Source: Candidatus Anstonellaceae archaeon (lineage in GTDB: Archaea > Micrarchaeota > Micrarchaeia > Anstonellales > Anstonellaceae). From it: DNA of 64,000 bases. The translations under genes were made by a program, and so were the position numbers. Shown piece after piece: positions 16,302 to 34,627 of this stretch. Numbering within the stretch: position 1 is the stretch's first letter; each line of letters begins with the position of its first letter. The stretch lies in the NCBI GenBank assembly GCA_038891035.1, contig JAWAEW010000005.1, forward strand, positions 1,425 to 65,424, in the 5' to 3' direction. The notes below the pieces were generated by a model that was given only the letters and a program-made list of their open reading frames with translations, was not told the DNA's origin and did no database searches.

Positions 16302-17882
16302 TTATCCTAGAGAATAAACGTGCTGTTTTATTTTGTATGTTTTGTCAAGTTGTTGGTTTAAGTCTGAAAGAAGCATCTCTTTTACTTTCAGATACTGGTC
16401 TTTTGGAAGCGGGCAATTCCCTACTGCATAGGAAAGATTTTTCACATTGAAGCAGAGTATGCAATTGTGACAGTTTTCAATATTGTGGCAAAAATAGCAA
16501 TCCGAGCAGCTCCTTCCGGAATCTACTTCAAAGCATCGAGACAGATTCTTTGAAAAGTAGCATTTTATGCAAAATGCCGAAGAAAGCCCACATCCGTAAG
16601 AGCCAAAAATAGCCTCTGAGTTTCTTGGCCAAAAGTTATAAGCGCAGTATTTGGCCTTTATGTTGATTACATTCATGAAGCAGTTGGAGGAGTCTATTGA
16701 GGTTGGACAGTCTATGCAATTTTTGTTATTTCCTACTGTCCAGATTGGGCAAAAGAAAGCAATTTTGCTGATTGCAGATGCAGCATTTGAAAGGGAGATA
16801 CGGTTTACTTCTTCTTTGGATATCGAAAGTTGTGCAGCGATTTCTGCCTCATGCTCAAGCAGAAGCCTTTCATTTGGAAATTTGAAAAACAATGCATAAT
16901 CTGGCACCAATATCCTTTTGCCGCTGATGCAGGATTTTTCTTCCTTGAAAAGCGCGCCTTGCTCCAAAAGCCAGCTTTCATATTGCCTCATTGGGCTTCT
17001 GGGTTTGCCAAGCACTATTTTGCATGCCTCAGCAAAAACAGAACTAACAGAAGATAAATCTTTTGCTTCGGGAGCTAATTTTTGGTTTTTTTCCATTAAT
17101 TTTTCCAAACCATCTCGGTTTGGTTCATGCAAAGAGGCGATCTCAAACAAAGATGGAAGGCTTTTTGTCTCAGAAAGCCAATCGCGCATTTCTTCGAGCA
17201 GCTTGGCTTTGATTTTGTAATATTCATCTTTTGTAAGCTGGAGATTTCCTATGCAGTAGCTTTTGTTTTTCAGCCCAAAGCAAAAAATACATTCTCTGCA
17301 TCCTGAAAGACTGTGAGAAAAGTAAATGTCGGATGAGTAATCAACCTTGTGCACTTCCATTGTCCTCTGGCAAAGATAATTGTTTGAGCGTATTCCAAAA
17401 GAGGAGGAGGCACATTGGCAGCCAAAAAGGCATTCTGAATAAAGGCAGTGTGTCGAATAAGCGACATATTTGGATTCGAAAATCTGCTCAGAACGATACA
17501 CAAAATGAGAATCTACTACATAAGTTGATGATTCTACTTGGTTGCAATTGCCAAGTACAATACTTCCAGCATATACGATATTTTCTTTTACTGCTTCAAT
17601 AAGTGAGTCCAGATCTTTGCACTTGTTTATTGAAATGGATGGGCTTCTTGCATCAAAATTTATGTCTTCAAATGCAATCCACTTCGAGCCCAAGTATGGT
17701 ATTGCGCCATATACTGCAGTCTTTCCATTTACTTGCCTTTCCAGCGAAGGCCTCTTAAAGGATGAAAGCCATTCTGAAAAATCTTCAAGTTCACCTACTT
17801 CTCCTCCAAGAAGCACCTTGCAAGTCTCTTTCCATTTCTTGTTCAAATGAGAATATAATTTGCTTTTTAGCTCATTTTGCAT
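16302..17882 (-). CDS. Cys-rich tandem-module protein, paralogue A (uncharacterised family)
   Basis: Paralogous to 27737-29293 and 33041-34627. N-terminal motif TCKVLLGGEVGELEDFSEWL. Cys-rich repeats ending CxxCxFCFxxKNxxYxIGNxxLxKDxY. Second half repeats the module (ACKIVLGK...CSDCYFCHNIENCHNCILCFNVKN...GNCPLPKDQY). Start taken at ATG 17882 (MQNELK). Confidence 0.7.
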   Translation of the reverse strand: MQNELKSKLYSHLNKKWKETCKVLLGGEVGELEDFSEWLSSFKRPSLERQVNGKTAVYGAIPYLGSKWIAFEDINFDARSPSISINKCKDLDSLIEAVKENIVYAGSIVLGNCNQVESSTYVVDSHFVYRSEQIFESKYVAYSTHCLYSECLFGCQCASSSFGIRSNNYLCQRTMEVHKVDYSSDIYFSHSLSGCRECIFCFGLKNKSYCIGNLQLTKDEYYKIKAKLLEEMRDWLSETKSLPSLFEIASLHEPNRDGLEKLMEKNQKLAPEAKDLSSVSSVFAEACKIVLGKPRSPMRQYESWLLEQGALFKEEKSCISGKRILVPDYALFFKFPNERLLLEHEAEIAAQLSISKEEVNRISLSNAASAISKIAFFCPIWTVGNNKNCIDCPTSIDSSNCFMNVINIKAKYCAYNFWPRNSEAIFGSYGCGLSSAFCIKCYFSKNLSRCFEVDSGRSCSDCYFCHNIENCHNCILCFNVKNLSYAVGNCPLPKDQYLKVKEMLLSDLNQQLDKTYKIKQHVYSLG

Positions 17883-17939
17883 GTGACAAGTTGTTTGATA
17901 GTTAGAATTTAATAAGTAGTAGTCTAGTATAATACTACT

Positions 17940-18695
17940 ATGGAGGAAAAGGCTTACCAAAATCTTGAAAGACGCATTTGCGATGCAGGACTAAGCATGA
18001 TGGAAAGCCGTACTTATCTTGCACTAGTCCAGCTTGGCCCTTCCCCTGCGTCTTCTATAATTAGGCTTGCTGGAATGCATAAGGCTACAGTTTATCAGGC
18101 ACTTCAGTCGCTGATAGAAAAGGGGCTTGTCTCGTTTACAATTGAAGGTAAAAGGAAAGTTTTTCGCCCTGCTGAACCAAGACTCCTTCTGGAGAAGCTT
18201 GCCGAAAAAGAGTCCTCTCTGGAGCAAGCCCTTCCTGACCTTGAAAGGATTTACAAAGCACATTCACTTGGAAAACAGCAAGTGAGCGTATATGTTGGGA
18301 AAGAAGGGATTAGGTCTGTGTTGAATTCCATGATAAGAGAGATTGGGCCTGGCGGGTTTTATTGTGATTTTGGAGTGTCTGGCCTTTTTAGGAAGGTGAT
18401 GGGCTCATATTTTACATTATGGCAAAAACTCAAGCGCAAAAAGAAGATAACATCATATGTCATTTTCAACGAGAAGCTGAGAAAGGACAAGGAATTTTTC
18501 AAAGAATATTTTGGCAAAGCAAGATTTTATCCTGAAAAGTACGAAAGCTTGACAGACACTATGATTTACAATGACACTGTAATACTGCTTATCTGGACTG
18601 CAAAGCCTCCGCTTGCGATTGTGATAAAAAGTAAGGAAAATGCAAAAAGCTACCTCAATCAATTCTGGCTGATGTGGGAAAAGGCTAAGCCTTAA
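17940..18695 (+). CDS. TrmB-family transcriptional regulator
   Basis: N-terminal winged HTH (LSMMESRTYLALVQLGPSPASSIIRLAGMHKATVYQALQSLIEKGLV) and C-terminal effector domain. Divergent from paralogue A, with a 57-bp spacer. Confidence 0.75.
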   Translation: MEEKAYQNLERRICDAGLSMMESRTYLALVQLGPSPASSIIRLAGMHKATVYQALQSLIEKGLVSFTIEGKRKVFRPAEPRLLLEKLAEKESSLEQALPDLERIYKAHSLGKQQVSVYVGKEGIRSVLNSMIREIGPGGFYCDFGVSGLFRKVMGSYFTLWQKLKRKKKITSYVIFNEKLRKDKEFFKEYFGKARFYPEKYESLTDTMIYNDTVILLIWTAKPPLAIVIKSKENAKSYLNQFWLMWEKAKP

Positions 18696-18761
18696 GCAGA
18701 CTAATTGTGCAGGACTAAACTTCTGCGTTAGAATATTAACACTTATTTCCAAAAAATAAGC

Positions 18762-20462
18762 ATGGCTCCTCTAAAAGAGATAATCAGAAAGCACACACTG
18801 AAAAATGCGTATGACCACGGTCAGGCTATTCCATCAAAAGTTATAGGGAAGGTTCTTGGGGAGTGGCCGCAAGCAAAAGAAGACTTGAAAGCTACGATGA
18901 AGATGATTGAAGAAGAAACAGCAAGAGTAAATGCTCTTTCAAAAGAGCAGATTGAAGAGGAGCTTGCTCAATTCTCCTTTGAAGAAAAGGTTGAGCAAAA
19001 AAAAGAGCTTACATTGCCTGAGGCAAAACAAGGGCAGGTAGTGACTCGATTCCCTCCAGAGCCTTCAGGATACCCACATATCGGACATGCCAAAGCCGCT
19101 TGGCTGGATTTCGAATGCGCGATGAAATACGAAGGAAAGATGATATTAAGGTTTGATGATACCAATCCAGAAAAGGAAAAGCAGGAATTTGTAGATGCAA
19201 TAAAGGAAGGACTTTCATGGCTTGGAATAAGATGGCACATGGAAACTTACACCTCGGACTATATGGAACTGCTTTACGGATATGCAGAAAAACTTCTTGA
19301 AACAAGGAAAGCCTATGTTTGCAGCTGTAGCCCACAAGAGATAAAGAAAGGAAGAGAAGCAGGGCAAGAATGCGCCTGTAGGGGCAGAACTGCTAATGAG
19401 AATTTGAGGTTATTTGAGCAGATGAAGATTGGCGATTTGGAGGAGGGAGCAGCAATCGTCCGCTTCATGGGCGACATGAAATCTGAAAATACCGTAATGA
19501 GGGACCCGACTCTACTCAGAATAGTAAAAACATCGCACTACAGACAAAAAACAAAATACTGCTGCTGGCCTTCTTATGACTTTTCAGCGCCGATACTTGA
19601 CTCAGTAGAAGGAGTAACACATGCAATGCGCACCAAAGAATACGAATTGAGAGATGCGCTTTATTTTGCAATCCTGGAAGCACTTGCTCTTCGCAAGCCG
19701 CATATGATAGAATTTGCAAGGCTGGAGATAAAAAATGCTCCAGTCTCAAAGAGGCTGATACTGCCGCTGGTCCAAGAAGGGAAAGTGGATGGGTTTTCTG
19801 ACCCGCGCCTGCCAACCTTGGCAGGATTAAAAAGGCGAGGAATTTTGCCTGAGGCGATAAAGGAATTTGTGCTTGAGTTTGGACTGTCGAAAGTGGAAAG
19901 CAAGCCAGGGTATGACAAGCTTCTTTGGTACAACAGAAAATATCTGGACAATAAGGCGATCAGAAGGTTTTTCGTGCCTGCACCGGTTCGGCTGGTTGTA
20001 GAGGGTGCGACCCCACAAGGAGTCTCACTTAGGAACCACCCCAATCTTGATCTTGGCAAGCGCACTATGATAGCAGGCAAAGAATTTTACATTGCTGGAC
20101 AGGATGCATCATCAATTGCTGAAGGAGAGGTTTTCCGCCTTAAAGAACTTTACAACGTAAAGCTTGTATCAAAAACAAAAGATGGTCTGCTTGCCTCCTT
20201 CGTCAGCCAGGAAGGCGCTGTTGAGAAAAAAATCCAGTGGGTTCCTGCTGAGGGGGCAGTCAGCTGCACTGTCTACAAGCCTGGAAAGCTTTTAGACGAA
20301 AATGGCCAGTTCAACCCAAAAAGCATGCTACAGGAGGAAGGCTATTGCGAGCCTTCGTGCATCAATCTTGCAGAAGGATCAGTTGTGCAGTTTGAAAGAT
20401 ATGGCTACTGTAGGCTAGATAGGAAAGAAGCTAGCAATCTGGTTTTCATATTCTCATGCTGA
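18762..20462 (+). CDS. gltX: Glutamyl-tRNA synthetase (archaeal type)
   Basis: Class I HIGH motif (PEPSGYPHIGHAKAA), archaeal GluRS architecture. Confidence 0.9.
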   Translation: MAPLKEIIRKHTLKNAYDHGQAIPSKVIGKVLGEWPQAKEDLKATMKMIEEETARVNALSKEQIEEELAQFSFEEKVEQKKELTLPEAKQGQVVTRFPPEPSGYPHIGHAKAAWLDFECAMKYEGKMILRFDDTNPEKEKQEFVDAIKEGLSWLGIRWHMETYTSDYMELLYGYAEKLLETRKAYVCSCSPQEIKKGREAGQECACRGRTANENLRLFEQMKIGDLEEGAAIVRFMGDMKSENTVMRDPTLLRIVKTSHYRQKTKYCCWPSYDFSAPILDSVEGVTHAMRTKEYELRDALYFAILEALALRKPHMIEFARLEIKNAPVSKRLILPLVQEGKVDGFSDPRLPTLAGLKRRGILPEAIKEFVLEFGLSKVESKPGYDKLLWYNRKYLDNKAIRRFFVPAPVRLVVEGATPQGVSLRNHPNLDLGKRTMIAGKEFYIAGQDASSIAEGEVFRLKELYNVKLVSKTKDGLLASFVSQEGAVEKKIQWVPAEGAVSCTVYKPGKLLDENGQFNPKSMLQEEGYCEPSCINLAEGSVVQFERYGYCRLDRKEASNLVFIFSC

Positions 20463-20530
20463 GCTTCTGCAAAAAACAAATAACTCAAATATGAGTAATA
20501 AAGATAAAAACAGCCAGTTCGGAGTTTGAG

Positions 20531-20980
20531 ATGGTGGTTTGGATGCTTGCTGAAAATCAAAAGGTCCCAGAATTCTCTTTACCTGACCCAACAGGAAAAG
20601 ACATACGGCTTTCTGATTTCAAAGGAAAAGTGGTTGTTTTGTACTTTTATCCAAAGGACGACACTCCTGGCTGCACCACTGAGGCTTGTAATTTCAGGGA
20701 CATATACAGTGAGCTTAAGAGTTTGGGGGCCGAAGTGGTTGGAGTTTCTCCAGACAGCCCGAAATCTCATTCTGCATTTGCGTCCAAATACGGCCTTCCT
20801 TTCCTACTACTTTCTGACCAGAAAAAAGAGGTTGCAAAGCTTTTTGGAGCGCTCAAGGATGACGGCTCGATCCTTCGCTCCACTTTTATAATAGACAAGG
20901 AAGGGAGGTTGAAGAAGGCATTCTTTGGGGTGGATCCTGCAAAGCACCATCAAGAGGTACTGAAATTTTTGAGAGAATGA
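20531..20980 (+). CDS. bcp: Peroxiredoxin (Bcp / AhpC-TSA family thiol peroxidase)
   Basis: FYPKDDTPGCTTEACNFRD peroxidatic Cys motif. Confidence 0.85.
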   Translation: MVVWMLAENQKVPEFSLPDPTGKDIRLSDFKGKVVVLYFYPKDDTPGCTTEACNFRDIYSELKSLGAEVVGVSPDSPKSHSAFASKYGLPFLLLSDQKKEVAKLFGALKDDGSILRSTFIIDKEGRLKKAFFGVDPAKHHQEVLKFLRE

Positions 20981-20981
20981 G

Positions 20982-21446
20982 TCATTTTTGCTGTGCGACT
21001 ATTACTATATCAGCAGTATTTCGCAGAGCAACCGAAAAGCCAGGCTCGCTTCCGATTACAATTGTCTCTTTTCCGAGCTCTTTTGCCTTTACAAGCACTG
21101 GCCTAAAATCTATATCGCGTGTCATCAGAGCAATTGCCTGGATGTGTGGATTATAAACTTGAACCATCGCTTCTACTGCCATAGTTACATCGACATCACC
21201 AGTAGTTACTACTGGCTCATAGCCCTGATTGGTCATTGCCTCAATCAGTTTATCTGAGGCGTACTGGTCAAGAAAAATCTTGGCCACTTTTATTTGTCCA
21301 TACTGTTCGACTGCCTTTTTTACTTGCACTAAATCCAATCGGACATCCTTGCGAATCACATTCGGTCCATCAATAAAAAGGGCGATGTTTTTGTCTTTTT
21401 TCTTTTTTTGCAGCATGGATTTGATTTTGTCCAGCATGCTTGCCAT
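20982..21446 (-). CDS. NYN (LabA-like) domain protein
   Basis: NIALFIDGPNV, GDVDVTMAVEA and IALMTRDIDFRPVL match the NYN/LabA consensus. Confidence 0.75.
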   Translation of the reverse strand: MASMLDKIKSMLQKKKKDKNIALFIDGPNVIRKDVRLDLVQVKKAVEQYGQIKVAKIFLDQYASDKLIEAMTNQGYEPVVTTGDVDVTMAVEAMVQVYNPHIQAIALMTRDIDFRPVLVKAKELGKETIVIGSEPGFSVALRNTADIVIVAQQK

Positions 21447-21450
21447 ACCA

Positions 21451-22185
21451 TCACCTTTTTCCTATATTGAAAAATGAAATTGTATTGAATAAAGTTCGGT
21501 ATTTTGCTTCTTCAACCGACCAATTCTTTGCCTCTGCAATTAGCTTTATTGACTCAAATGTGTCAGATGGGGATTTGCCAATTGCAGGCGCATCAGATTC
21601 TGCCAATATGCGCTCTGGAGGAATTAGAGAAATCAGTTCTTTTCTCCTACCACTTCTCAGTGGAGGCACAGAGATCCAGCCATTTTTAGAAGTAGCTTGG
21701 GCTGCAGTTGCGGCATCTCCTGAAAAGCAGTGCAAAAGGTAGTGAAGGTTGAAGTTTTCTAAGATTTCCACGCACTCTTTTTCAGCCTGCCTGCTGTGCA
21801 CCACTACAGGAAGCCCTAGCCTTTCTGCAAGCTGAAGCTGAGATATGAAGCACTCGTGCTGTAAGTACTTTTCTTCTTCTGTTTTGCCCCAATAGTAATC
21901 CAGTCCAATTTCACCTATGCCTACAAGCTTGCCGGCAGGGGCAATTTCCTTTTCTATTGCCTCCTCCCACTCAACAAGCGAAACCTTTATCTGCTTGTGT
22001 CTGATTGCCTCCTGCGGCGAGATTCCAGCACAGATATACACGTTTGGATGCTCTTGAGCTATTTTGGCATTTCTTAAGTTGGTCTGATGAGAGGTGCCAC
22101 AGCTAATAATCAAAATATCTGGAGGGATGGGACCACTGCAGGATTCTACATGGCAGTGCGCATCTGCAAAGGTGTAACCTTCCAT
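21451..22185 (-). CDS. TatD-family metal-dependent hydrolase/DNase
   Basis: DAHCHVE N-terminal motif. GEIGLDYYW. HSRQAEKE. HCFSGD. Confidence 0.8.
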   Translation of the reverse strand: MEGYTFADAHCHVESCSGPIPPDILIISCGTSHQTNLRNAKIAQEHPNVYICAGISPQEAIRHKQIKVSLVEWEEAIEKEIAPAGKLVGIGEIGLDYYWGKTEEEKYLQHECFISQLQLAERLGLPVVVHSRQAEKECVEILENFNLHYLLHCFSGDAATAAQATSKNGWISVPPLRSGRRKELISLIPPERILAESDAPAIGKSPSDTFESIKLIAEAKNWSVEEAKYRTLFNTISFFNIGKR

Positions 22186-22192
22186 TCAATCA

Positions 22193-22540
22193 CTACTCTA
22201 CATCAGAAAGCCTTGCCCTGATTCTCTTTTTCACTAGATGATCATGCGCAAGCATTCCATGGCGTATCTTTCGAATTGCCAGGAGCAAAAGCAGAAGGAA
22301 AACGAAAAAAAATGTAGAATCAACCAGGCGCTGGCTTTCTTGCTCAAGCAACCTGAAGGTAGAAGCAAACTCTGCAGTGAAGAAGAGCAGCAAGGCTGCC
22401 ACCATTATCTGAAATGTCTTTGAAAAGGAGCTGCTTCGATCCCTCCAATACATAGGAACAATTGTCCAAATCAAATAGGCTGCCACTGCAAGATTGGCAA
22501 TGCGTATCAAAAGCTCAAGAACGCTTAAATAGTCGGTCAT
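22193..22540 (-). CDS. Small membrane protein (hypothetical, 3 predicted TM)
   Basis: Hydrophobic ORF. No domain recognised. Confidence 0.4.
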   Translation of the reverse strand: MTDYLSVLELLIRIANLAVAAYLIWTIVPMYWRDRSSSFSKTFQIMVAALLLFFTAEFASTFRLLEQESQRLVDSTFFFVFLLLLLLAIRKIRHGMLAHDHLVKKRIRARLSDVE

Positions 22541-22590
22541 AATCAGAATTTGCTTTTATCCCTTATATTCTTATCTGCTCAAACTGCTTC

Positions 22591-23124
22591 ATGAGGCTTT
22601 TTGTTGCAATTAGAGTGCCAAAGGATGCATTGCCTCAAATCCAAAGAGTATCTGCCCCGCTTGAAGGCGCACTTGGAGTAAAAATGACAAAGCCTGAAAA
22701 TCTGCACATTACTCTTCGGTTCATAGGAGAAGTAGAAACCCAACAGGCAGAAAAGATAGCTGAGGCTTTAAACCGGATTGAGTTTGAGCCTTTCGAAGTT
22801 AAGCTTTTCTTAGCAGGGGCATTTCCAAACAGACATTTTCCAAGAGCAATATGGATAGGTGGAAGCAGCCAGGAAGCAAGCCAACTTGCATCAAAGATTG
22901 ACTCAGTCTTGTCCTTTCTGAAGCTTCCGCAAGAGGAATTCAGACTGCATCTGACTGTTGCGCGTGCCCCGAAAAGTGCTGCGGATATAGATGACTTCCT
23001 CAACCAGCCACCGTTTTGCATTTCCTTTCCAGTAGATGCATTCTTTTTGATAAGAAGTAGACTTACACCGGAAGGCCCAATCTACGAAGATATAAAAAAA
23101 TACAGTGCCAACAAGCCTGCGTGA
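22591..23124 (+). CDS. ligT: 2'-5' RNA ligase / 2H phosphoesterase (LigT)
   Basis: Two H-x-T/S-x motifs (HITLRF and HLTVAR). Confidence 0.8.
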   Translation: MRLFVAIRVPKDALPQIQRVSAPLEGALGVKMTKPENLHITLRFIGEVETQQAEKIAEALNRIEFEPFEVKLFLAGAFPNRHFPRAIWIGGSSQEASQLASKIDSVLSFLKLPQEEFRLHLTVARAPKSAADIDDFLNQPPFCISFPVDAFFLIRSRLTPEGPIYEDIKKYSANKPA

Positions 23125-23761
23125 TGCCATGAGGCAAATAAAGATAGTTCCAGCGATTCTTTCCAAGACAAAGGAGGACTTTCAAGACAAGCTTAAGAGG
23201 GTGCAGTCCTTTGTGGATATGGTTCAAGTGGATGTAATGGATGGTGTTTTTGTCCCAAACAAGACTTTGGAACCTGAATTTTTTCCTAACTTTCCAAAAG
23301 GGATGAAGGTTGAATACCATCTAATGGTAAATTCTCCTTTGGAGTATGTCAAAAGGATCGGGCACAAAAAAGCAATATACGAGCTTCATGTAGAAGCCTT
23401 GACGGATATAAATAAGGCAATAAAGGAGGTGAGGGGAATGGGAGGAGATGTGGCCCTTGCTATTTCTCCAGATACCCCCTCCTCTACAGTTGAGCCTTAT
23501 CTGGACCAAATTACGCATGTACTTGTTATGACTGTTTACCCTGGCTTTTCTGGGCAGAAATATCTGCAAACGATGGAAGATAAGATAATGAGGCTTGCCA
23601 GGTTAGGCGCAATTGTTGAAATAGATGGTGGTGTTGAAGTCGGAGTGGTAAAAAGAGCGGCAGCAGCAGGTGCAACCATGTTCGCAGCAGCCTCTGCAAT
23701 ATTTTCCAAAGGAGACGTAAAGCGCGCCATAGATGAGCTTATGCAGGATGCCCAAATTTAG
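23105..23761 (+). CDS. rpe: Ribulose-phosphate 3-epimerase
   Basis: KIVPAILS...VQVDVMDGVFVPN and Rpe-type TIM barrel motifs. Confidence 0.85.
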   Translation: MPTSLRDAMRQIKIVPAILSKTKEDFQDKLKRVQSFVDMVQVDVMDGVFVPNKTLEPEFFPNFPKGMKVEYHLMVNSPLEYVKRIGHKKAIYELHVEALTDINKAIKEVRGMGGDVALAISPDTPSSTVEPYLDQITHVLVMTVYPGFSGQKYLQTMEDKIMRLARLGAIVEIDGGVEVGVVKRAAAAGATMFAAASAIFSKGDVKRAIDELMQDAQI

Positions 23762-23781
23762 CTTTAATTTTAAAGTTTGCC

Positions 23782-26290: not shown

Positions 26291-26295
26291 GGGTT

Positions 26296-27666: not shown

Positions 27667-27736
27667 CATTTTTTATTTTTGAACTTGATGAAATTTGAAA
27701 ATGGCTTGCCGAAGGCTAATTTAGGGTGCTACTGAA

Positions 27737-29293
27737 ATGGATTTGCTGGATTCTGTTCTTCAAAAAGCTTGGGCTTCCACATGCCGTGTTGTTTTGAGAA
27801 GAGAGCTTGGAAGTCTGGATCTTTTTCGCCCTTGGCTACTGGAACATATCCCAAAAGTGGCTTGCAGGGATTCGGTTTATGGAAAGGTGATTCTTGCAAG
27901 GGATTGCTATCCAGAAGGAGCATCTTGCGTCCCACAGGATAGGGTAACAATCAACAAAGAATTTACTTTGAGCATAAATCAGATTAAAGACATAGATTCT
28001 ATTATTAGCGCATGCCTTGAAAGGTTTGAATATGTTGGAAACAAAGTTTTAGGAAACAGTGCATTTGTCCGAGACTCAGATATTGTAATTGATTCGCAAT
28101 ACGTAAACAGTTCAACAAACATCGAGGAGTCCTCATATATAGATTGTTCTTTCATGGTTAGGAAAGGTAGCAAATACTGCTTTGGCTCAGGCTATTGTGG
28201 CCAGTCAGAATTTTTGATACGAACAATTGGCACCTTCAACAGCAAATACTGCTTTGAGAGCTATTTTGTCACAGATTCCAGCTCTGCATACTTTTGTGAA
28301 AGCTGTCATGGGTGCAAAGAGATTATGTTCTGTTTTGGGCAGAGAAACTCTTTGTATAAGATAGGCAATCTCCAGCTTCCAAAAGACAAATATTTTTCCT
28401 TGAAAAGCAAGCTGCTTGAGGAGGTTTGCGATGAGCTTGAAAAGGAAGGCAGGTTTCCTGCACTATTTGAAATTGCTAAGGAATCTTCTGAGAGAATGGA
28501 AAAGTTGGAAATTGAAAGCAAAACAATCAAGCAGAATATGAAGATTATTGATAATGGATTTGAAAAAACTTCTAGGATCATACTAAAGCGCGGCCTTGGA
28601 CCTATAAAAGAATATGAAAATTGGCTTATGAACAATAGCCAGAACATTGCAAAAATTAAGAGTGCATTTGGAATGGAAGTAAGTATACCTTTATCATTTG
28701 CTTATTTTTCCTTTCTGCCAAAAGACAGAATAGTCAGTTTTGACGAGATGGAAAAAATAGGCCAGCAGTCGCTTTCCCAACAAGATATAGCAAGCATAAA
28801 ACAGTTGAAGCAAAAGATAGGTAAGATTGCATATTTCACCTCTGAATTTTATGCTGGCGAAAATGCAAACTATATCGACTCGCCAGTGGTCTTCTATGCA
28901 ACCAACGTATACAAGACTTATGATGCCACATATGCAGACAACATAGGCGCATCCTTCCTTGCCTTGAACTCGAAATTTATCTATGGAGGATTCCGCATAC
29001 TTGAATCCCAGTTCTCTATAAAGTGCTATAATTCACTTTACATGAACCGCTGTATGGAGATGGATTCGTGCAGCAAATGCTCAGATTCATACTTTTGCCA
29101 CAATTGTGAAAGCTTGGCGGATTGCATGTTCTGCTTTTCTGCAAAAGGAAAGAGAAATATGATAGGGAACATGCAGCTTTCAAAAGAAAGATACGCAAAA
29201 ATAAAGGATTCTCTTGTGCAACAGATGGCAGACGAGCTTGAGAAGACGAAGAGGCTGCGTTTTAGCATATACTTTGAAAGGGGAAAAGATTAG
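27737..29293 (+). CDS. Cys-rich tandem-module protein, paralogue B (uncharacterised family)
   Basis: MDLLDSVLQKAWASTCRVVLRRELGSLDLFRPWL. CESCHGCKEIMFCFGQRNSLYKIGNLQLPKDKY. Second module ends CSKCSDSYFCHNCESLADCMFCFSAKGKRNMIGNMQLSKERY. Confidence 0.7.
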   Translation: MDLLDSVLQKAWASTCRVVLRRELGSLDLFRPWLLEHIPKVACRDSVYGKVILARDCYPEGASCVPQDRVTINKEFTLSINQIKDIDSIISACLERFEYVGNKVLGNSAFVRDSDIVIDSQYVNSSTNIEESSYIDCSFMVRKGSKYCFGSGYCGQSEFLIRTIGTFNSKYCFESYFVTDSSSAYFCESCHGCKEIMFCFGQRNSLYKIGNLQLPKDKYFSLKSKLLEEVCDELEKEGRFPALFEIAKESSERMEKLEIESKTIKQNMKIIDNGFEKTSRIILKRGLGPIKEYENWLMNNSQNIAKIKSAFGMEVSIPLSFAYFSFLPKDRIVSFDEMEKIGQQSLSQQDIASIKQLKQKIGKIAYFTSEFYAGENANYIDSPVVFYATNVYKTYDATYADNIGASFLALNSKFIYGGFRILESQFSIKCYNSLYMNRCMEMDSCSKCSDSYFCHNCESLADCMFCFSAKGKRNMIGNMQLSKERYAKIKDSLVQQMADELEKTKRLRFSIYFERGKD

Positions 29294-29335
29294 ATTTTTA
29301 TATGTTGAATAGGAATCTGCAAAAGAGGCGAAAGT

Positions 29336-30202
29336 GTGAAAGCGGCAACTTTGTTTGCAGCGGTATTTCTTTTGACGGTTGGATTCGTATTTGCAGGGAC
29401 TGCAAGCTGCCAAGATGGAACCAAGCACGGCAGTTGCTCAAAGGTCAATCCTGGACTTTACTGCATAGACGGAAAACTTCATCCTTATGTTTCGTTTTGC
29501 CCTTGTAGTGCGGTGCCTGGATGGAAGCAGCAAGGAGAAGGCGAGAATGCAGTTTGTGTTCAAGAAAAATGTGCTGATGGGACTGAATCTGGCAAATGCT
29601 CTTCTGATAAGCCGAAGCAGTGCGTAGGAGGTCGGCTGATTGACAACGCAACTGCATGCGGCTGCCCGCCAGGCAAAATTATTAGCCAAAACGGACTTAC
29701 ATGCGTATTTTTGCCATGCAATGATTCTGGAGTGAGCGTGCCAGAAGGGACCTGCTCACCAAAATCAGCAGGCAAGAAATGTGTTGAAGGCAAGCTAGTA
29801 GATAAGGCTTCTGAGTGCCCGTGTGGCGCTGGAACAGTCAAAAAAGGAGAGCGATGTGTGGTGCTTTGCGAGGATGGAACAGAGGTTGGAAGCTGCTCTC
29901 CTTCTAAGCCAAAGGAATGCGTGCTTTCTGGGCTTGGAGTTGGAGTTTTGCTTGATAACGCTTCCAAATGTGGCTGCCCCCCAGGAATGGAGACACAAGG
30001 AAACAGGTGCATAGAGGCTGGCGCAAGTTTGCCTTCCTTGTCGGGAGGGGCAGAAACTTTGACAGAGACTCTGAATGGAAGTGGCACTGAACCACAGCAA
30101 GAAGAAGCGCAGCCGCTTTCATGCTTCTGCTGCCCTTCTGCATTTGCAATCCTGCTTTTGCTTGGGATGATATACAAAGCTAAAGATAGCCCCACATTGT
30201 AA
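29336..30202 (+). CDS. Secreted Cys-rich repeat protein (4 tandem ~48-aa six-Cys repeats) with C-terminal hydrophobic anchor
   Basis: GTG start and signal peptide (MKAATLFAAVFLLTVGFVFAG). Repeats built around DGTxxGxCSxxKPKxCVxGxLxDxAxxCGCPPG. Several N-x-S/T sequons. Ser/Thr/Glu-rich linker. C-terminal CCPSAFAILLLLGMIYKAK. Confidence 0.6.
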   Translation: MKAATLFAAVFLLTVGFVFAGTASCQDGTKHGSCSKVNPGLYCIDGKLHPYVSFCPCSAVPGWKQQGEGENAVCVQEKCADGTESGKCSSDKPKQCVGGRLIDNATACGCPPGKIISQNGLTCVFLPCNDSGVSVPEGTCSPKSAGKKCVEGKLVDKASECPCGAGTVKKGERCVVLCEDGTEVGSCSPSKPKECVLSGLGVGVLLDNASKCGCPPGMETQGNRCIEAGASLPSLSGGAETLTETLNGSGTEPQQEEAQPLSCFCCPSAFAILLLLGMIYKAKDSPTL

Positions 30203-31481
30203 GTCTGTCTCTGTCCTCCGCCCATCTCTTGCCAATGTCTGTGCGATAAAAAAGGTTGGGAATTATGATGTTTTTGACTCGATTGTATGCCACTTTTCTT
30301 GCTTCTTCCATGGTGGTTCCTGATCCGGTGACCACCAGTGCATAGCCGCTGTTGCCTGCAAGCTTCCAGTCGCCCTCATCCAGCTTGACATCTCCAAGAT
30401 GTATGCCTTCAAAGCTTGGCTTTTTGAATATGATGGATGCATCCTCCGAATATCTCTTGAATGCATCAGGGTCGCGGAAAGGGAAGGGTGGCACTGCAAT
30501 CACCACCCCAACTTCAAACGCCCTCTTAGTCCGAAACTCTGGTCTTTCACCCTTTGCAATACCATAAAGGAATTGCCCCCATTCAGAAAGCACTCCTTCC
30601 ATCATTATGCTTATGTGCGGGTATCCAAACCTGCTGGTGAATTCAAGCGGATAAATGCCGCGTGAGTTTACAATGCAGTTCAAATCAATGTAACCAACAT
30701 ATCCTGATTGCGCAAGCTTTTCTTTCATTTTGCCCAAGGTAGCATTAAATAATGGGCTGTTTTGCACAAAAAACATGGAAGTCCCCATTTCACCTGTGGA
30801 TGGCCCTATGTCTCCAGGAAACATCCGTTTGTGCTCAAAGTTCACATTTACAGGACTTGCAAATTCCTTTCCATTGAAAAAGGCCCCGACTGCAACTTCC
30901 ACTCCGGATATGTATTTCTGAAGCTGAAACTCCTTTATCTTCTTGCTCCATACTTTCTTGTAGCGATTGAGCATTTCCAATATATCTTTGCCGTCATCTT
31001 CTTGCCCAACAAAAAGTAACTCTTTTTCATTTTGTGCAAGCCCTGAAGGCTTCAGGACATATCTGTCTGGATTTGATTTTATGAATTCTATTGCATCGTC
31101 AAAAGAGTTGAAAATCCATTGAGGTATTATTGAAATGCCAACAGATTCCAGCTCTTTTTGGCCAAATTGCCTATCCAGCTCAAGCTTGTCAGTGTATGCG
31201 CTTCCACCTACAACTAGTTTCCCCTCCTTTCTAAGCTCATCTGCCTCTTTTCCAAATCCAACGTCGTCAAAAACAATCACGTCTGCCCAACTGACTTCGC
31301 TTTTCCAGTCCTCGCATTTTTCCACAAATCCGTCGCAGACATCCTTTTGCTCCTTGTGGTGAATGTAGTATTTTGCCTCGTACCCTTCTTTTTTTATCTG
31401 CCAGGCCAAATCTCCAATTAGTGCATCGAATGAGACAAAAAGAAACTTCAACTTCTTCTTTTCTGCATTGTTGTTTGTCAC
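30180..31481 (-). CDS. ATP-grasp protein of the phosphoribosylamine--glycine ligase (PurD) family, divergent N-terminus
   Basis: C-terminal GYALVVTGSGTTMEEARKVAYNRVKNI...FYRTDIGKR matches the PurD C-domain (GGRVLxVTAxG...AY...YRRDIG). The N-terminus lacks the canonical GGGREHAL. Confidence 0.6.
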   Translation of the reverse strand: MTNNNAEKKKLKFLFVSFDALIGDLAWQIKKEGYEAKYYIHHKEQKDVCDGFVEKCEDWKSEVSWADVIVFDDVGFGKEADELRKEGKLVVGGSAYTDKLELDRQFGQKELESVGISIIPQWIFNSFDDAIEFIKSNPDRYVLKPSGLAQNEKELLFVGQEDDGKDILEMLNRYKKVWSKKIKEFQLQKYISGVEVAVGAFFNGKEFASPVNVNFEHKRMFPGDIGPSTGEMGTSMFFVQNSPLFNATLGKMKEKLAQSGYVGYIDLNCIVNSRGIYPLEFTSRFGYPHISIMMEGVLSEWGQFLYGIAKGERPEFRTKRAFEVGVVIAVPPFPFRDPDAFKRYSEDASIIFKKPSFEGIHLGDVKLDEGDWKLAGNSGYALVVTGSGTTMEEARKVAYNRVKNIIIPNLFYRTDIGKRWAEDRDRLTMWGYL

Positions 31482-31555
31482 TTGAATGATTTTGCAGAAA
31501 TTGTTTTTAGTGAGTGTGTTACATTTGGAACTTGTCGCCTTTTTTGAAAATAGGT

Positions 31556-31604
31556 GTTAATTTGGTATTAACATTTAAAAACCCTATGTTAATATGATAT
31601 TAAC
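31556..31604 (+). promoter_or_regulatory. hsp20 promoter with two palindromic operator-like sites GTTAAT-N5-ATTAAC flanking a TTTAAAAA TATA box
   Basis: GTTAATTTGGTATTAAC (31556-31572), TATA TTTAAAAA (31574-31581) and GTTAATATGATATTAAC (31588-31604). SD GGAGGTGA before ATG 31630. Confidence 0.45.
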
Positions 31605-31629
31605 AGTAGCATCTTGCGGAGGTGAGAAT

Positions 31630-32052
31630 ATGGTTGGGCTAGTGAGGTGGAAACCGTTCCATGACTTTGGGCTCGAAAGATTCTTTGAGGATGACTTCCC
31701 GTTCTTTCCTGGAAGATCTGGATTTACCGACCTTGCAACTGATGTCTATGATGATGGCAACAACATCGTTGTCAAGATGAATGCACCTGGCTTCCAGGGA
31801 GATGCGATTGACATAACCTTTGAAGGCAACTATCTGAAAGTGACTGGCCAGCGCAAAGAAGAGAAAGAAGAAAAGCAGAAAAATTACTACTGCAAAGAAA
31901 TCCACTCTGGCTCATTTGAACGCCTAATAAGACTCCCAACTGCAGTAAAGGCAGAAAAGGCAGAGGCAGAATACAAGGACGGGGTACTCAAAATAGTCGT
32001 CCCAAAAGAAGAGCCCAAAGGCACTAAAGTAAAAGTAAAGGTCAAAAACTAA
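31630..32052 (+). CDS. Small heat-shock protein (Hsp20/alpha-crystallin family)
   Basis: Alpha-crystallin domain (DVYDDGNNIVVKMNAPGF...GVLKIVVPK). Confidence 0.9.
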   Translation: MVGLVRWKPFHDFGLERFFEDDFPFFPGRSGFTDLATDVYDDGNNIVVKMNAPGFQGDAIDITFEGNYLKVTGQRKEEKEEKQKNYYCKEIHSGSFERLIRLPTAVKAEKAEAEYKDGVLKIVVPKEEPKGTKVKVKVKN

Positions 32053-32278
32053 GCACCCCCTTTTTTTATTTTAGTTTTATTTAACACGAACAAAAAAGCA
32101 TGTCTGGAGACTGAAATTCTGCTTTCTCTACTCTTGTTCAGGCAAAGTTAGGAATTTGAAGGACATTGGCTTGCTTGCTGCTTTCTGCCAACTGCTCTCA
32201 TAGGCAGCAGAGTTTGCAGCTTTCAGAAAAAAGTAGCAACCCAAAACTAATTTATATCTAAAATAGAAAAAGAATCTT

Positions 32279-32980
32279 ATGTCCAAGCGAACTTTTAGGA
32301 TAAAAAGTGCCACTTTTGGCATTTATCACCATGACTGCCAAACATCGGAGTCTTCAGAAAAATTCCCAGGGATAACACTGAAGCAGCTAAGCCCAGTAGT
32401 ATATCTTTCAAAAAAGAACTCTAAGCTGGACTACAGCCTTATTTGGGAGGTAGAGGCAAACTCACCATCAGAACTTGAAGAATATTTGCAATACGTGAAA
32501 AATGACCCGAGGACCATTCGCCTTCGCATACTTGAGAAAGGGAGGAATAATGCACTTATCTTGCTTCGCTTTCTTGGTACAAGCTCAACTTACGGCACAA
32601 TAATTTCCAACAAAGTAACTCTTACTTCCTTAGCCAGAGCAAAGGAAGGCTTTGAAACTTACAGTATTATCTCTGAAAAACCAAACTTCGTAAAAAAGAT
32701 GCTTGAAGAGCTATCGTGCATAGGCCAGGTAAAGATCTTAAGAGTCAGTGATTTTGACCCCAAGAAAGATCTTTTTGTGCCATCAATCACTGAGAAACAG
32801 GCAGAGGCGCTCAAGATCGCTCTTATTAACAACTACTACTCTTGGCCGAAAGGAACTACGCTGGAGCGCCTTGCTTCAATTGCAAAAATAAGCAGAAGGA
32901 GCATGCAGGAACGCCTAAGAAGGGCAGAGGCAAAACTACTTCCAGTCCTTCTGAAAGACTATCTGAAAAAGAAGCTGTAA
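32279..32980 (+). CDS. Transcriptional regulator with C-terminal HTH_10 (bacterio-opsin activator-like) DNA-binding domain
   Basis: ITEKQAEALKIALINNYYSWPKGTTLERLASIAKISRRSMQERLRRAEAKLL matches the HTH_10 consensus. The N-terminal ~150 aa is a putative sensor domain. Confidence 0.65.
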   Translation: MSKRTFRIKSATFGIYHHDCQTSESSEKFPGITLKQLSPVVYLSKKNSKLDYSLIWEVEANSPSELEEYLQYVKNDPRTIRLRILEKGRNNALILLRFLGTSSTYGTIISNKVTLTSLARAKEGFETYSIISEKPNFVKKMLEELSCIGQVKILRVSDFDPKKDLFVPSITEKQAEALKIALINNYYSWPKGTTLERLASIAKISRRSMQERLRRAEAKLLPVLLKDYLKKKL

Positions 32981-33040
32981 TTGGACATATGCCCAAAATA
33001 TCATTTTAAGTGCCGTTGGCGTTTTATTTTATGTGAAAAC

Positions 33041-34627
33041 ATGGAGAGGTCAGATGATATTCAAGATATTATTGAAAAAAGATGGAGCGGCACCTGCAAA
33101 GTTGTTTTTGGGCAGGAAATTGGATCTATCAGGGATTACACCCGATGGCTAAAGGAAAAGATTGAGCCTATTGTAATTCGCACCTCGTCTATATCTGGAA
33201 AGAAGGTTGCATATGCGATTCCGAACTATTCAGAAAACTCAAAGTGGATTGGACTTGAAGAAATAGGAAACAGCAAATTTCCTCCTCTTTCCATAAATGA
33301 AATAAAAGACATAGAAAGTATTGTGTCTGCAATCAAAGATAGGATCTATTACACTGGCAACATAGTCCTTGGAAATTCAGGCTTTATATACGAAAGCTCT
33401 AGCATTTCAGATTCATTTTACATGTACCATACAGGAAAATTTGGAGATTCTAAATACCTCGCATTTTGCACCCTTGGAAGGCTTTGTGAAGATTGCTTTG
33501 GATGCAATGGGATTGGTGAAAGCCACTTTTGCATTAAAGCATATGAAACTTTCAGAGTCAAGCGGTCATTTGAATTTTGGATGGGACAGAATTGCTCGGA
33601 CTGCTACTATACTCATAATCTTTCTGGATGCTCTGATTGTATTTTCTCGTTCAATCTGAAAAACAAACACTTTGCAATTGGAAATTGCACATTACCAAAA
33701 GATAAATACCTCAGCATAAAAAATTCTCTTCTTGAGCAGCTGAGAGATTGGCTTATTAGGAAGAAAAGGGCACCTTCGTTGCTGGACCTTATTCCACTTT
33801 CAATCCCTCCAAAATTGCCAAGACTGGCAGCAGAAAGCAAGAATTCAAAAGTAAGCGACCTTGGACCGATAGAGGAAGGGTTTGCGAAAACTTGCCAAAT
33901 AATCTTTGGAAAAAGACTTTCAGGCAAGCTGGACGATTATGCTGATTGGCTTTCCAAGCATGTCAGAAAACACCAGAAACTTCACTCTGCAATAAGCGGG
34001 GAGCAGGTTTGCAGATGGGATTACTCAAATTATTTCATGCTGCCCCAAGAAAGAATTGTTTCCCAGGGTGAGGCTCTTGCGCTCGGTGAAATCCTTGCTC
34101 TTTCAAAAGATGAGATAGATACCATCTCTCTCAACAATGTAGGGGGAGTTTTAGGCAAAATTGCATTTTTCTCAACAGAATATGCAGAAGGGACAAACAT
34201 AAATGTAATAGATTGCCCTACTCCAACTCAGTCCTCAAACTGCTACCGCACTTCCCCTGTTGTCTATTCGAAATATTGCGCTTATTCTTTTTGGCCAAGA
34301 AGCTCACAGTATATTTTTGGCTCAAATGCAATATTTGACTCTGAGTTTTGTATCCACTGCTACCATTCAGTAAAGCTTAAGCGTTGTTTTGAGATGGATT
34401 CCTGCAACTCATGCTATAACTCATATTTCTGCCACAATTGCGAAAATGTAAGCGACAGCATGTTTTGCTTCAACGCCAAAAACTTGCGCTATGCAATAGG
34501 AAATGTAGAGGTCGGGCAGGAACAATTTCTTAAAATAAAAAATCTGCTTCTCTCAAAGATTCTTGCAGAGCTTGAGGCAAAGAAAAAATTCGATTTAAAC
34601 ATATACAATATAGGACAGAAAAAATAA
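33041..34627 (+). CDS. Cys-rich tandem-module protein, paralogue C (uncharacterised family)
   Basis: ATG at 33041 (MERSDDIQDIIEKRWSGTCKVVFGQEIGSIRDYTRWL), 60 bp after the HTH_10 gene stop. CSDCIFSFNLKNKHFAIGNCTLPKDKY. Second module ends CNSCYNSYFCHNCENVSDSMFCFNAKNLRYAIGN. Confidence 0.7.
   Translation: MERSDDIQDIIEKRWSGTCKVVFGQEIGSIRDYTRWLKEKIEPIVIRTSSISGKKVAYAIPNYSENSKWIGLEEIGNSKFPPLSINEIKDIESIVSAIKDRIYYTGNIVLGNSGFIYESSSISDSFYMYHTGKFGDSKYLAFCTLGRLCEDCFGCNGIGESHFCIKAYETFRVKRSFEFWMGQNCSDCYYTHNLSGCSDCIFSFNLKNKHFAIGNCTLPKDKYLSIKNSLLEQLRDWLIRKKRAPSLLDLIPLSIPPKLPRLAAESKNSKVSDLGPIEEGFAKTCQIIFGKRLSGKLDDYADWLSKHVRKHQKLHSAISGEQVCRWDYSNYFMLPQERIVSQGEALALGEILALSKDEIDTISLNNVGGVLGKIAFFSTEYAEGTNINVIDCPTPTQSSNCYRTSPVVYSKYCAYSFWPRSSQYIFGSNAIFDSEFCIHCYHSVKLKRCFEMDSCNSCYNSYFCHNCENVSDSMFCFNAKNLRYAIGNVEVGQEQFLKIKNLLLSKILAELEAKKKFDLNIYNIGQKK

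What the first reader, a model, noticed from the sequence alone, without database searches (positions are those of the whole stretch)
16302..34627. Three dispersed paralogues of an uncharacterised cytoplasmic Cys-rich protein family, each an internal tandem duplication
Three ORFs (16302-17882 minus strand, 27737-29293, 33041-34627) share a two-module architecture. Each ~250-aa module opens with a conserved (T/A)CK(V/I)(V/I)xGxxxGxxxx(Y/F)xxWL motif. It continues with ~24-aa Ser/Tyr/Cys-rich repeats (H-C-x4-C-x3-C-x-C, C-x2-C-x2-C patterns). It ends in CxxCx(F/M)CFxxKNxxYxIGNxxLxKDxYxxIKxxLL. The module is duplicated within each protein. None has a signal peptide, so the Cys clusters are likely metal (Zn or Fe-S) ligands rather than disulfides. 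I cannot assign the module to any known family from sequence. Retention of three copies within 18 kb of a small compact genome, two of them beside transcription factors, suggests a regulated function rather than junk.
Basis: seen in the sequence. Interest (0 to 1): 0.8.

Follow-up and report, generated by a model that had tools for sequence, protein, structure and literature searches.

The report
Micrarchaeota-specific twin beta-solenoid protein family
The three genes are real, strongly conserved members of an undescribed protein family found only in Micrarchaeota, in which each protein is two copies of a very narrow 12-residue-per-turn beta-helix; the many cysteines appear to line the core rather than bind metal, and the function is still unknown.

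Summary
Three paralogues (35-41% identical) each consist of two homologous ~260-aa modules. No Pfam, NCBIfam, PADLOC or PDB family matches.

The interpretation needs correcting in three ways.
- The cysteines are not obligate metal ligands. Across 346-450 members no Cys column exceeds 81%. Cys is replaced by Ser, Val, Ile or Ala. Members carry 2-36 Cys, and Cys co-occur as stacked i/i+12 ladders.
- The copies are remnants of a tandem array. Relatives carry at least 13 copies, sometimes as separate adjacent N-type and C-type genes.

The residues conserved family-wide form a polar patch on the C-module (D453, H465, N466, E468, N478, K480). Paralogue A keeps a divergent TrmB regulator and C an upstream HTH_10 regulator in other genomes. 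dN/dS is 0.09-0.15.

My best guess, at low confidence, is a regulated cytoplasmic ligand-binding or catalytic pseudo-dimer. The family is new; the fold class is known.

The parts
16302..17882 (-). Paralogue A (526 aa). The N-type module is encoded by 17097-17882 and the C-type module by 16305-17096.
   Evidence: AF2 model: pLDDT 88.3, pTM 0.89. Orthologues reach 60-61% identity.
17915..17939 (.). Imperfect palindrome AGTAGTAGTCTA-g-TATAATACTACT in the 57-bp A/TrmB divergent intergenic region. It is a candidate operator.
   Evidence: The orthologous intergenic region in L079 has TGTAGTCTT-N4-AAGACTACA, which shares the GTAGTCT half-site.
17940..18695 (+). TrmB-family regulator, divergent from A.
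   Evidence: Pfam TrmB, 1.5e-14. The same divergent pairing occurs next to A's orthologue in L079, although the other neighbours differ.
27737..29293 (+). Paralogue B (518 aa). The N-type module is encoded by 27737-28501 and the C-type module by 28502-29290.
   Evidence: Orthologues reach 81% and 53-58% identity. dN/dS is 0.09 against L080.
32279..32980 (+). HTH_10-family regulator directly upstream of C.
   Evidence: Pfam HTH_10, 4e-13. It lies upstream of C orthologues in at least 12 loci.
33041..34627 (+). Paralogue C (528 aa). The N-type module is encoded by 33041-33826 and the C-type module by 33827-34624.
   Evidence: AF2 model: pLDDT 79, pTM 0.82. There are 810 homologues at E<=1e-3. 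dN/dS is 0.15.
33341..33688 (+). N-module solenoid of C (aa 101-216), about ten 12-residue coils.
34160..34510 (+). C-module solenoid of C (aa 374-490), about ten 12-residue coils.
34397..34480 (+). Codons for the polar patch conserved family-wide: D453, H465, N466, E468, N478 and K480.
   Evidence: Weighted conservation is 85-97% in 346 members.

Best explanation
The three ORFs are functional genes of an undescribed family that was seen only in Micrarchaeota among the records shown. Each protein is a fused pseudo-heterodimer of an N-type and a C-type module.

Each module has three parts:
- a ~100-aa alpha/beta cap;
- a narrow beta-solenoid of about ten 12-residue coils;
- a long C-terminal helix that packs back on the cap.

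Every third position of a coil is small or aliphatic (Ser/Cys, Val/Cys, Ser/Cys/Asn, Ile/Leu). I infer, by analogy with the 12-residue beetle antifreeze beta-helix, that these positions fill the core. On that reading the cysteines form stacked core ladders and are not an obligate metal-ligand set.

The functional inference is low-confidence. The conserved surface patch on the last coils of the C-module (E451, D453, H465, N466, E468, N478, K480) is probably completed by K89/D90 of N-domain 1. It would form one ligand-binding or catalytic site per protein. The symmetric site on the N-module is degenerate.

Each ancient paralogue is controlled by its own adjacent regulator: TrmB for A and HTH_10 for C. 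The paralogues therefore probably perform the same chemistry or binding on different ligands or under different conditions.

I put the structural part at about 0.85 and the functional part at about 0.3.
For: Real, constrained genes. There are 810, 164 (E<=1e-20) and 138 (E<=1e-10) homologues of uniform 520-540 aa length. There are 322 cluster representatives at E<=1e-30. dN/dS is 0.09 for B and 0.15 for C, similar to the housekeeping neighbours.

Fold.
- AF2 gives pTM 0.82 and 0.89, with strands every 6 residues in model A.
- Profile autocorrelation peaks at an offset of 12.
- In DCA, 29 of the top 130 couplings lie at a separation of exactly 12 and form a continuous ladder. They include stacked salt bridges K138-E150 and R175-D187.
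- The register table shows small or aliphatic residues at columns 1, 4, 7 and 10.

Cys as core residues.

The two modules act together. Split versions always occur as adjacent N-then-C genes (25 N-only and 30 C-only ORFs, against 138 fused proteins). Inter-module DCA couplings include S64-Q526, E39-I486, G76-V489, I98-C458 and D90-I486.

The patch is conserved and the N-module equivalent is degenerate (H192 is only 35% conserved).

Regulator pairing is conserved while the other neighbours change. A palindrome is shared between the orthologous A/TrmB intergenic regions.
Against: - No homologue with a known function was found, so the function rests on conservation pattern and gene context only.
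- The Cys-rich last coils are the least confident part of both models (pLDDT 55-79).
- I could not inspect coordinates. Side-chain orientation and the proximity of K89/D90 to the patch are inferred from a TmAFP-like geometry and from modestly ranked couplings; D90-I486 ranks 182.
- Period-12 couplings can be inflated by repeat-register misalignment.
- A 12-residue coil offers no obvious active-site cleft.
- Within the C orthogroup several Cys are 90-100% conserved, so subgroup-specific metal binding is not excluded.
Confidence: 0.5

Rival explanations
1. The proteins are metalloproteins. The CxxC and CxxCxxC clusters would ligate Zn or Fe-S centres, and the repeats would be metal knuckles.
For: - Cys content is 4.2-5.7%, against 1.6% background.
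- CxxC spacing of 3 or 9 residues is common.
- 6 of 61 members weakly match zf-CXXC, best E 6e-5.
- One member is named 'zinc ribbon domain-containing' by NCBI and one 'predicted metal-binding transcription factor' by JGI.
- In the C orthogroup, C440, C449, C458 and C476 are 92-100% conserved.
Against: - Family-wide, no Cys column exceeds 0.81, and Cys is replaced by V, I, L, A or S.
- Members carry 2-36 Cys, and 25 of 346 have fewer than 10.
- No Cys is invariant across the six half-modules of the window.
- Cys co-occurrence is strongest at i/i+12 stacking rather than in quartets. The best-conserved four Cys lie on different coils.
- The automated names were not reproduced with NCBIfam.
- No Fe-S or Zn Pfam model reaches its threshold.
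Confidence: 0.15
2. The family belongs to a conflict or host-interaction system. It would comprise effector or immunity-type paralogues, possibly handled by the HerA/FtsK-like ATPase found next to many arrays, for example by translocation into a host cell.
For: - The family is lineage-specific and lies in a DPANN symbiont lineage.
- Tandem arrays reach 9 genes, and one genome carries at least 13 copies.
- A HerA/FtsK/TrwB-like P-loop ATPase is adjacent in 24 of 78 loci, in several orientations.
- 50 of 72 members match the viral family phrog_15341, best E 2e-8.
Against: - dN/dS of 0.09-0.15 and orthologues at ~60% identity across genera indicate conservation, not diversification.
- Length is uniform.
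- There is no secretion signal.
- No PADLOC hit was found for the family.
- The ATPase is absent from this window.
- No relatives were found in phage genomes, IMG/VR or plasmids.
- The ATPase adjacency may be inherited synteny.
Confidence: 0.17
3. The solenoid is stabilised by disulfides. It would be a TmAFP-like beta-helix with an intra-coil disulfide ladder, giving a rigid or thermostable structural rod or polymer.
For: - The coils are 12 residues long with small residues at every third position.
- The best PDB hit of the module profile is TmAFP 1ezg, at E=0.17.
- The MAG probably comes from a geothermal spring. The supporting points are an Anstonellales study of geothermal springs (PMC12892359) and my own inference from the locus tag.
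Against: - The number of Cys per protein shows no bias towards even values (212 of 450; p=0.24).
- Cys pairs at i/i+6 are negatively associated.
- The proteins are predicted to be cytoplasmic.
- The N-terminal cap and C-terminal helix appear to cover both solenoid ends and so argue against end-to-end polymerisation. This is inferred.
Confidence: 0.08
4. The ORFs are spurious or decaying and have no function.
For: There is no annotation and no experimental evidence of expression.
Against: The ORFs are conserved and full-length in at least 44 species-level genomes. dN/dS is far below 1. The AF2 models are confident.
Confidence: 0.01

Closest known systems
Beetle antifreeze protein TmAFP / DAFP (PDB 1ezg), a 12-residue-per-coil beta-helix
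   Same: Both have a 12-residue coil with a small residue at every third position; TmAFP has C2, S5, C8 and A11 (my knowledge). Both are Cys-rich. TmAFP is the top, non-significant, PDB sequence hit of the module profile.
   Different: - There is no significant homology (E=0.17).
- The TmAFP i/i+6 disulfide pattern is not supported.
- There is no TxT ice-binding ladder.
- The proteins are cytoplasmic rather than secreted.
- The solenoid is flanked by cap domains and is duplicated within each protein.
Left-handed beta-helix (hexapeptide-repeat) acyltransferases such as LpxA, GlmU and PglD
   Different: - DCA shows a 12-residue coil, not 18; only one of the top 130 couplings lies at separation 18.
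- No Hexapep Pfam hit was found.
- The assembly is a pseudo-dimer of two modules rather than a trimer.
Curli CsgA and other two-sheet beta-solenoids
   Different: CsgA has ~20-residue coils with a Gln/Asn-rich amyloid core and is secreted. No sequence similarity was found.
phrog_15341, a viral protein family of unknown function
   Same: The only database family with reproducible sequence similarity: 50 of 72 members match, best E 2e-8, over the C-module solenoid.
   Different: The match covers only positions 38-123 of a 276-position profile. The function is unknown. No member could be retrieved by tblastn or through IMG/VR. The similarity may reflect the shared Cys-rich repeat alone.

Membership tests
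Zinc-finger / zinc-ribbon / zf-CXXC | An invariant set of four Cys/His ligands per metal ion | tested here: not met
   No Cys column exceeds 0.81 and Cys is replaced by V, I, A or S. Members carry 2-36 Cys. zf-CXXC matches only 6 of 61 members, and weakly.
Fe-S cluster proteins (ferredoxin-type CxxCxxCxxxC) | A conserved Cys motif and a profile match | tested here: not met
   No Fe-S family appears in the Pfam or NCBIfam searches. Cys are not conserved.
TmAFP-type 12-residue beta-helix | A 12-residue coil with small residues at every third position | tested here: met
   Autocorrelation, the DCA ladder at separation 12 and the register table.
TmAFP-type 12-residue beta-helix | One intra-coil i/i+6 disulfide per coil | tested here: not met
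   Cys pairs at i/i+6 are negatively associated, and Cys counts show no bias towards even values. This is a sequence-statistics test only.
TmAFP-type 12-residue beta-helix | Sequence homology, a TxT ice-binding face, and secretion | tested here: not met
   E=0.17. The outward ladders are aromatic or charged. No signal peptide is present.
Hexapeptide-repeat LbH acyltransferases / gamma-carbonic anhydrases | An 18-residue triangular coil and the [LIV]-G-x4 hexapeptide profile | tested here: not met
SufB/SufD beta-helix Fe-S scaffold | A fold or profile match to SufBD | tested here: not met
phrog_15341 | A profile match over most of the family model | tested here: inconclusive
   50 of 72 members match at E<=0.01, but over only ~86 of 276 profile positions.
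COG4008 / methanogenesis marker protein 9 (JGI name for P0468) | A profile match to the family | tested here: inconclusive
   NCBIfam gave no hit for P0468 or for A, B and C. I had no COG profile and no Mmp9 sequence to compare.
Known anti-phage defence proteins (PADLOC) | A profile match | tested here: not met
   The only hit was a chance-level match to a CARF model, E 0.018.

The most novel reading that the evidence does not exclude
Micrarchaeota would have independently evolved, and then expanded to as much as ~2% of a ~1-Mb genome, the narrowest known class of beta-helix (12 residues per turn). That class is otherwise known only from beetle antifreeze proteins. Here it would serve as a cytoplasmic pseudo-dimeric enzyme or sensor, with the active site on the solenoid surface around D453 and H465. 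Alternatively it would be cargo of the HerA/FtsK-type ATPase that flanks the arrays. In either case this would be a new functional class of solenoid protein, with stacked cysteine ladders possibly giving it redox or metal responsiveness.
Probability: 0.2. Interest if true: 0.8.

Novelty: new variant of a known kind. Interest (0 to 1): 0.55.

Why it matters
These genes are among the most expanded lineage-specific families in Micrarchaeota, a DPANN lineage with genomes of about 1 Mb. One genome holds at least 13 copies, roughly 20 kb of sequence. The family has no annotation and no mention in the literature I could search. It is conserved as tightly as housekeeping genes, and its ancient paralogues have dedicated regulators. 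It therefore probably performs a core function specific to this lineage.

Structurally, it would place a 12-residue beta-helix in cytoplasmic prokaryotic proteins and provide a natural model of Cys/Ser ladder cores. The practical result here is a set of testable predictions:
- the conserved His/Asp/Glu/Asn/Lys patch, rather than the cysteines, is the place to mutate;
- the N-type and C-type modules should form an obligate pair;
- the TrmB and HTH_10 regulators should bind the adjacent promoters.

Tried and rejected
**Searches that found nothing useful**
- Pfam, NCBIfam and PADLOC scans of A, B and C.
- PDB sequence searches with single sequences and with profiles.
- Foldseek against PDB and against the BFVD viral set; every hit had E>2.
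- tblastn against phage genomes, run twice, and against plasmids.
- The IMG/VR scan.
- Literature searches on Micrarchaeota, DPANN and Anstonella.

**Limits of the tools**
- The afdb50 library was unavailable.
- The representative-library search gave counts (322 / 697 / 2043), but its top 150 were all core family members. The ~1,350 distant matches could not be examined.

**Leads rejected or left inconclusive**
- The search for specificity-determining positions between the A and C orthogroups failed because the groups were too coarse.
- The weak tblastn hit at 11132-11389 lies in an ORF that overlaps other ORFs on the opposite strand, so I read it as a spurious antisense ORF.
- The 'zinc ribbon' and 'methanogenesis marker 9' names given to two members were not reproducible.
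- The HerA-like neighbour matches known families only around its Walker A motif.
- The relative orientation of the two solenoids could not be resolved from DCA.
Full report
**1. Observation**

The three ORFs are present at the stated coordinates and translate to 526 aa (A, 16302-17882, minus strand), 518 aa (B, 27737-29293) and 528 aa (C, 33041-34627). They align over their full length at 35-41% identity.

BLASTP of the six half-proteins shows that every N half matches every C half, at 24-33% identity over ~240 residues and 64-117 bits. The internal tandem duplication is therefore real. The N halves group together and the C halves group together, so the duplication predates the paralogues.

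Only three copies occur in the window. None has a hydrophobic segment, and pI is about 7.6-8.3. Cys makes up 4.2-5.7% of residues, against 1.6% in 35 other ORFs of the window.

**2. Family and distribution**

The window comes from a Candidatus Anstonellaceae MAG (Micrarchaeia, DPANN): P0001, P0121 and P0379 are 100% identical to C, A and B, with locus tags QXN37_02080, _01990 and _02055 on a 66.9-kb contig.

- C has 810 homologues at E<=1e-3. A has 164 at E<=1e-20 and B has 138 at E<=1e-10. Nearly all are 520-540 aa, and all but two are unnamed or 'hypothetical'.
- A module profile finds 322 cluster representatives at E<=1e-30 and 2043 at E<=1e-3 among 1.84 billion.
- A scan of one genome per GTDB species confirmed 259 stretches. 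The best 78 loci come from 44 genomes, all labelled Micrarchaeota/Micrarchaeia, Anstonellaceae or Bilamarchaeaceae, or simply 'archaeon'; two loci are from a MAG labelled 'ainarchaeum sp.', a name the NCBI taxonomy copy did not hold.
- No relatives appeared in phage genomes, IMG/VR or plasmids.
- No paper I could search mentions the family.

**3. No known family**

Pfam, NCBIfam, PADLOC, PDB sequence searches (single sequence and profile) and Foldseek against PDB and BFVD gave nothing significant.

The only reproducible database similarity is to phrog_15341, a viral family of unknown function. It is matched by 50 of 72 members (best E 2e-8), but over only about a third of its profile.

Weak zf-CXXC hits in 6 of 61 members appear to reflect the CxxCxxC spacing. 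Two automated names, 'zinc ribbon domain-containing' and 'predicted metal-binding transcription factor (methanogenesis marker protein 9)', were not reproducible with NCBIfam.

**4. Fold**

- AF2 on C with 61 sequences gave pLDDT 79 and pTM 0.82.
- AF2 on A with a more diverse 72-sequence alignment gave pLDDT 88.3 and pTM 0.89.

Both models show the same layout in each module: an alpha/beta N-domain of ~100 aa, a ~115-aa repeat region, and a long helix. In model A the repeat region carries short strands every six residues (103-174).

Three independent sequence analyses fix the coil length at 12:
- Profile autocorrelation peaks at an offset of 12, with a 3-residue sub-period.
- Mean-field direct-coupling analysis of 729 modules (Meff 581) puts 29 of the top 130 couplings at a separation of exactly 12 and only one at 18. 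They form a continuous ladder across the repeat region. The strongest are charge pairs, K138-E150 and R175-D187. Full-length DCA repeats this result.
- Writing the sequence in rows of 12 shows ladders. Columns 1, 4, 7 and 10 are Ser/Cys, Val/Cys, Ser/Cys/Asn and Ile/Leu. Columns 3 and 5 are aromatic.

'Every third residue small' in a 12-residue coil is the architecture of the beetle antifreeze protein TmAFP (consensus TCTxSxxCxxAx; my knowledge). TmAFP is the top, non-significant, PDB hit of the module profile (E=0.17).

One caveat applies: period-length couplings in repeat proteins can be inflated by register errors. I also had no coordinates to inspect.

**5. The cysteines**

- In a weighted alignment of 346 two-module members, no Cys column exceeds 0.81. 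The common replacements are Ser, Val, Ile, Ala and Leu.
- Members carry from 2 to 36 Cys (median 24), and 25 of 346 have fewer than 10.
- No Cys is invariant across the window's six half-modules.
- In 450 members there is no excess of even Cys counts (212 even; p=0.24).
- After stratifying by total Cys, pairs at i/i+6 are negatively associated (median log odds ratio -0.75). Pairs at i/i+12 are the most positively associated (+1.03).

This is what stacked core ladders predict. Fixed Zn or Fe-S ligand quartets or TmAFP-style intra-coil disulfides would give a different pattern. Within the C orthogroup some Cys are 92-100% conserved, so metal binding in a subgroup is not excluded.

**6. What is conserved instead**

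Residues conserved at >=0.9 family-wide are mostly structural Gly, Phe, Leu and Tyr, plus:
- K89 and D90 in N-domain 1;
- R175, E178 and D187 in solenoid 1;
- E451 and H465 in solenoid 2;
- the Asn of the terminal IGN motif, N215 and N488.

On the C-module, D453 (88%), H465 (97%), N466 (90%), E468 (88%), N478 (85%) and K480 (90%) sit in columns 8, 9 and 11 of three successive coils. That would be a contiguous surface under the 12-residue geometry. The equivalent N-module positions are degenerate; H192, for example, is only 35% conserved.

Inter-module couplings place N-domain 1 against the last coils and helix of module 2: S64-Q526 (rank 1), E39-I486, G76-V489, I98-C458 and D90-I486. They place the end of solenoid 1 against N-domain 2: K222-D360, N205-A345 and I201-L364.

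In 78 loci I found 138 fused proteins, 25 N-only ORFs and 30 C-only ORFs. Away from locus ends, the single-module ORFs lie as adjacent N-then-C gene pairs. This argues that the two module types work as an obligate pair.

**7. Genomic context**

Relatives carry long co-directional arrays with overlapping stops and starts: 9 consecutive genes in L033 and at least 13 copies in one genome.

The window is a reduced version of such an array.
- In L003 the order is B-orthologue, HTH_10, C-orthologue.
- In L001 two more paralogues sit between the B-orthologue and HTH_10.
- In the closest relative, L080, the order is CCA-adding enzyme, B, an unknown secreted protein, HTH_10, C.
- In the window, PurD and Hsp20 additionally separate B from HTH_10-C.

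HTH_10 lies immediately upstream of C orthologues in at least 12 loci.

A's orthologue (61% identical, L079) keeps the divergent TrmB gene although every other neighbour differs. Both A/TrmB intergenic regions carry a palindrome built on GTAGTCT.

Other family members sit next to a tandem Lrp/AsnC regulator (15 loci). A HerA/FtsK/TrwB-like P-loop ATPase is adjacent in 24 of 78 loci, in several orientations, but it is absent from this window.

Against L080, dN/dS is 0.09 for B and 0.15 for C. The CCA-adding enzyme gives 0.12 and HTH_10 gives 0.09.

**8. Mechanism**

*Shown:*
- The genes are real and constrained.
- Each protein has two homologous modules.
- The coils are 12 residues long.
- The Cys are exchangeable.
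- The C-module has a conserved polar patch.
- Regulator pairing is conserved.

*Inferred:*
- The two modules form a pseudo-heterodimer with one conserved composite site. It comprises the C-module patch and probably K89/D90, and it binds a ligand or catalyses a reaction.
- The paralogues differ in ligand or condition, and each is switched by its own regulator.

I put the structural reading at ~0.85 and this functional reading at ~0.3.

*Rivals:*
- Metal-cluster protein (0.15).
- Conflict or host-interaction family linked to the HerA-like ATPase (0.17). Strong purifying selection and the absence of secretion signals argue against it.
- Disulfide-stabilised structural rod (0.08).
- Non-functional ORFs (0.01).

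**9. Comparison and novelty**

The closest analogue in architecture is the TmAFP-type 12-residue beta-helix. The closest structural matches are CsgA and hexapeptide-repeat transferases. Membership of each was tested and not met on at least one defining feature (see the membership table).

The fold class, beta-solenoid, is known. The family itself, its twin-module organisation with cap domains, its cytoplasmic Cys/Ser ladder core and its expansion in Micrarchaeota are, as far as these tools show, undescribed. I therefore rate it a new variant of a known kind, with moderate interest (0.55). It is a solid, testable dark-matter family rather than a demonstrated new mechanism.

Noticed in passing
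window 29336-30202 (+): A 288-aa ORF with no Pfam, NCBIfam or PADLOC hit. It has an N-terminal signal-like hydrophobic segment, four ~45-aa Cys-rich repeats (C.DGT..G.CS...P..C..G.L......C.CP.G) and a C-terminal hydrophobic anchor, so it is probably a surface protein. It is unrelated to the solenoid family (HMM E=7). It keeps its position between B and HTH_10 in the closest relative L080, at only 48% identity.
   Followed up: partly
window 34748-34855 (-): Rfam finds a 108-nt tRNA (53.8 bits) just downstream of paralogue C that ARAGORN did not report. Its length suggests an intron-containing archaeal tRNA.
   Followed up: no
window 17915-17939; L079 5942-5963: Palindromes sharing the half-site GTAGTCT lie in the divergent intergenic regions between the TrmB gene and paralogue A or its orthologue. 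They are a candidate TrmB operator. A chance match is not excluded.
   Followed up: partly
L001 7597-10179, L007 2348-4402 and 22 other loci: A 650-920-aa HerA/FtsK/TrwB-like P-loop ATPase, some with a low-complexity Pro/Gln/Glu-rich C-terminus, flanks the family arrays in 24 of 78 loci in several orientations. Only the Walker A region matches known families (DUF87, CedD, mad8). No copy is present in this window.
   Followed up: partly
L017, L042, L058, L067, L070 and others; P0002: The family also exists as separate ~255-aa N-type and C-type genes, always adjacent in N-then-C order, sometimes as repeated N-C-N-C runs. One contig-truncated protein (P0002, 730 aa) has at least three modules.
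   Followed up: yes
window 33041-34627 compared with L080 10236-11840: Paralogue C is 89% identical to its orthologue with dS 0.37. The neighbouring genes (B, CCA-adding enzyme) have dS 1.2-1.5 and 73-81% identity. This could reflect recent recombination or transfer at the C locus, or unusual synonymous constraint.
   Followed up: no
window 32279-34627: The HTH_10 ORF and paralogue C are in the same reading frame, separated by one stop codon and 20 codons. In L023 the two genes are in different frames, so this is probably coincidence rather than read-through.
   Followed up: partly
P0468 and P0418: Two family members carry automated names: JGI 'predicted metal-binding transcription factor (methanogenesis marker protein 9)' and NCBI 'zinc ribbon domain-containing protein'. 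Neither was reproduced with NCBIfam. A possible remote link to COG4008 remains untested.
   Followed up: partly
window 11123-11773 (-): This 216-aa ORF gave a weak tblastn hit to the family (E~0.4). It overlaps ORFs 10089-11126 and 11420-13171 on the opposite strand and looks like a spurious antisense ORF.
   Followed up: yes
L002, L009, L015, L019, L028, L034, L055, L075 and others: A ~320-aa regulator with two AsnC-type HTH domains and an Lrp/AsnC ligand-binding domain lies in 15 loci, upstream of and divergent from a family gene in at least 7 of them. It is a third regulator type paired with the family and is not present next to the window's copies.
   Followed up: partly
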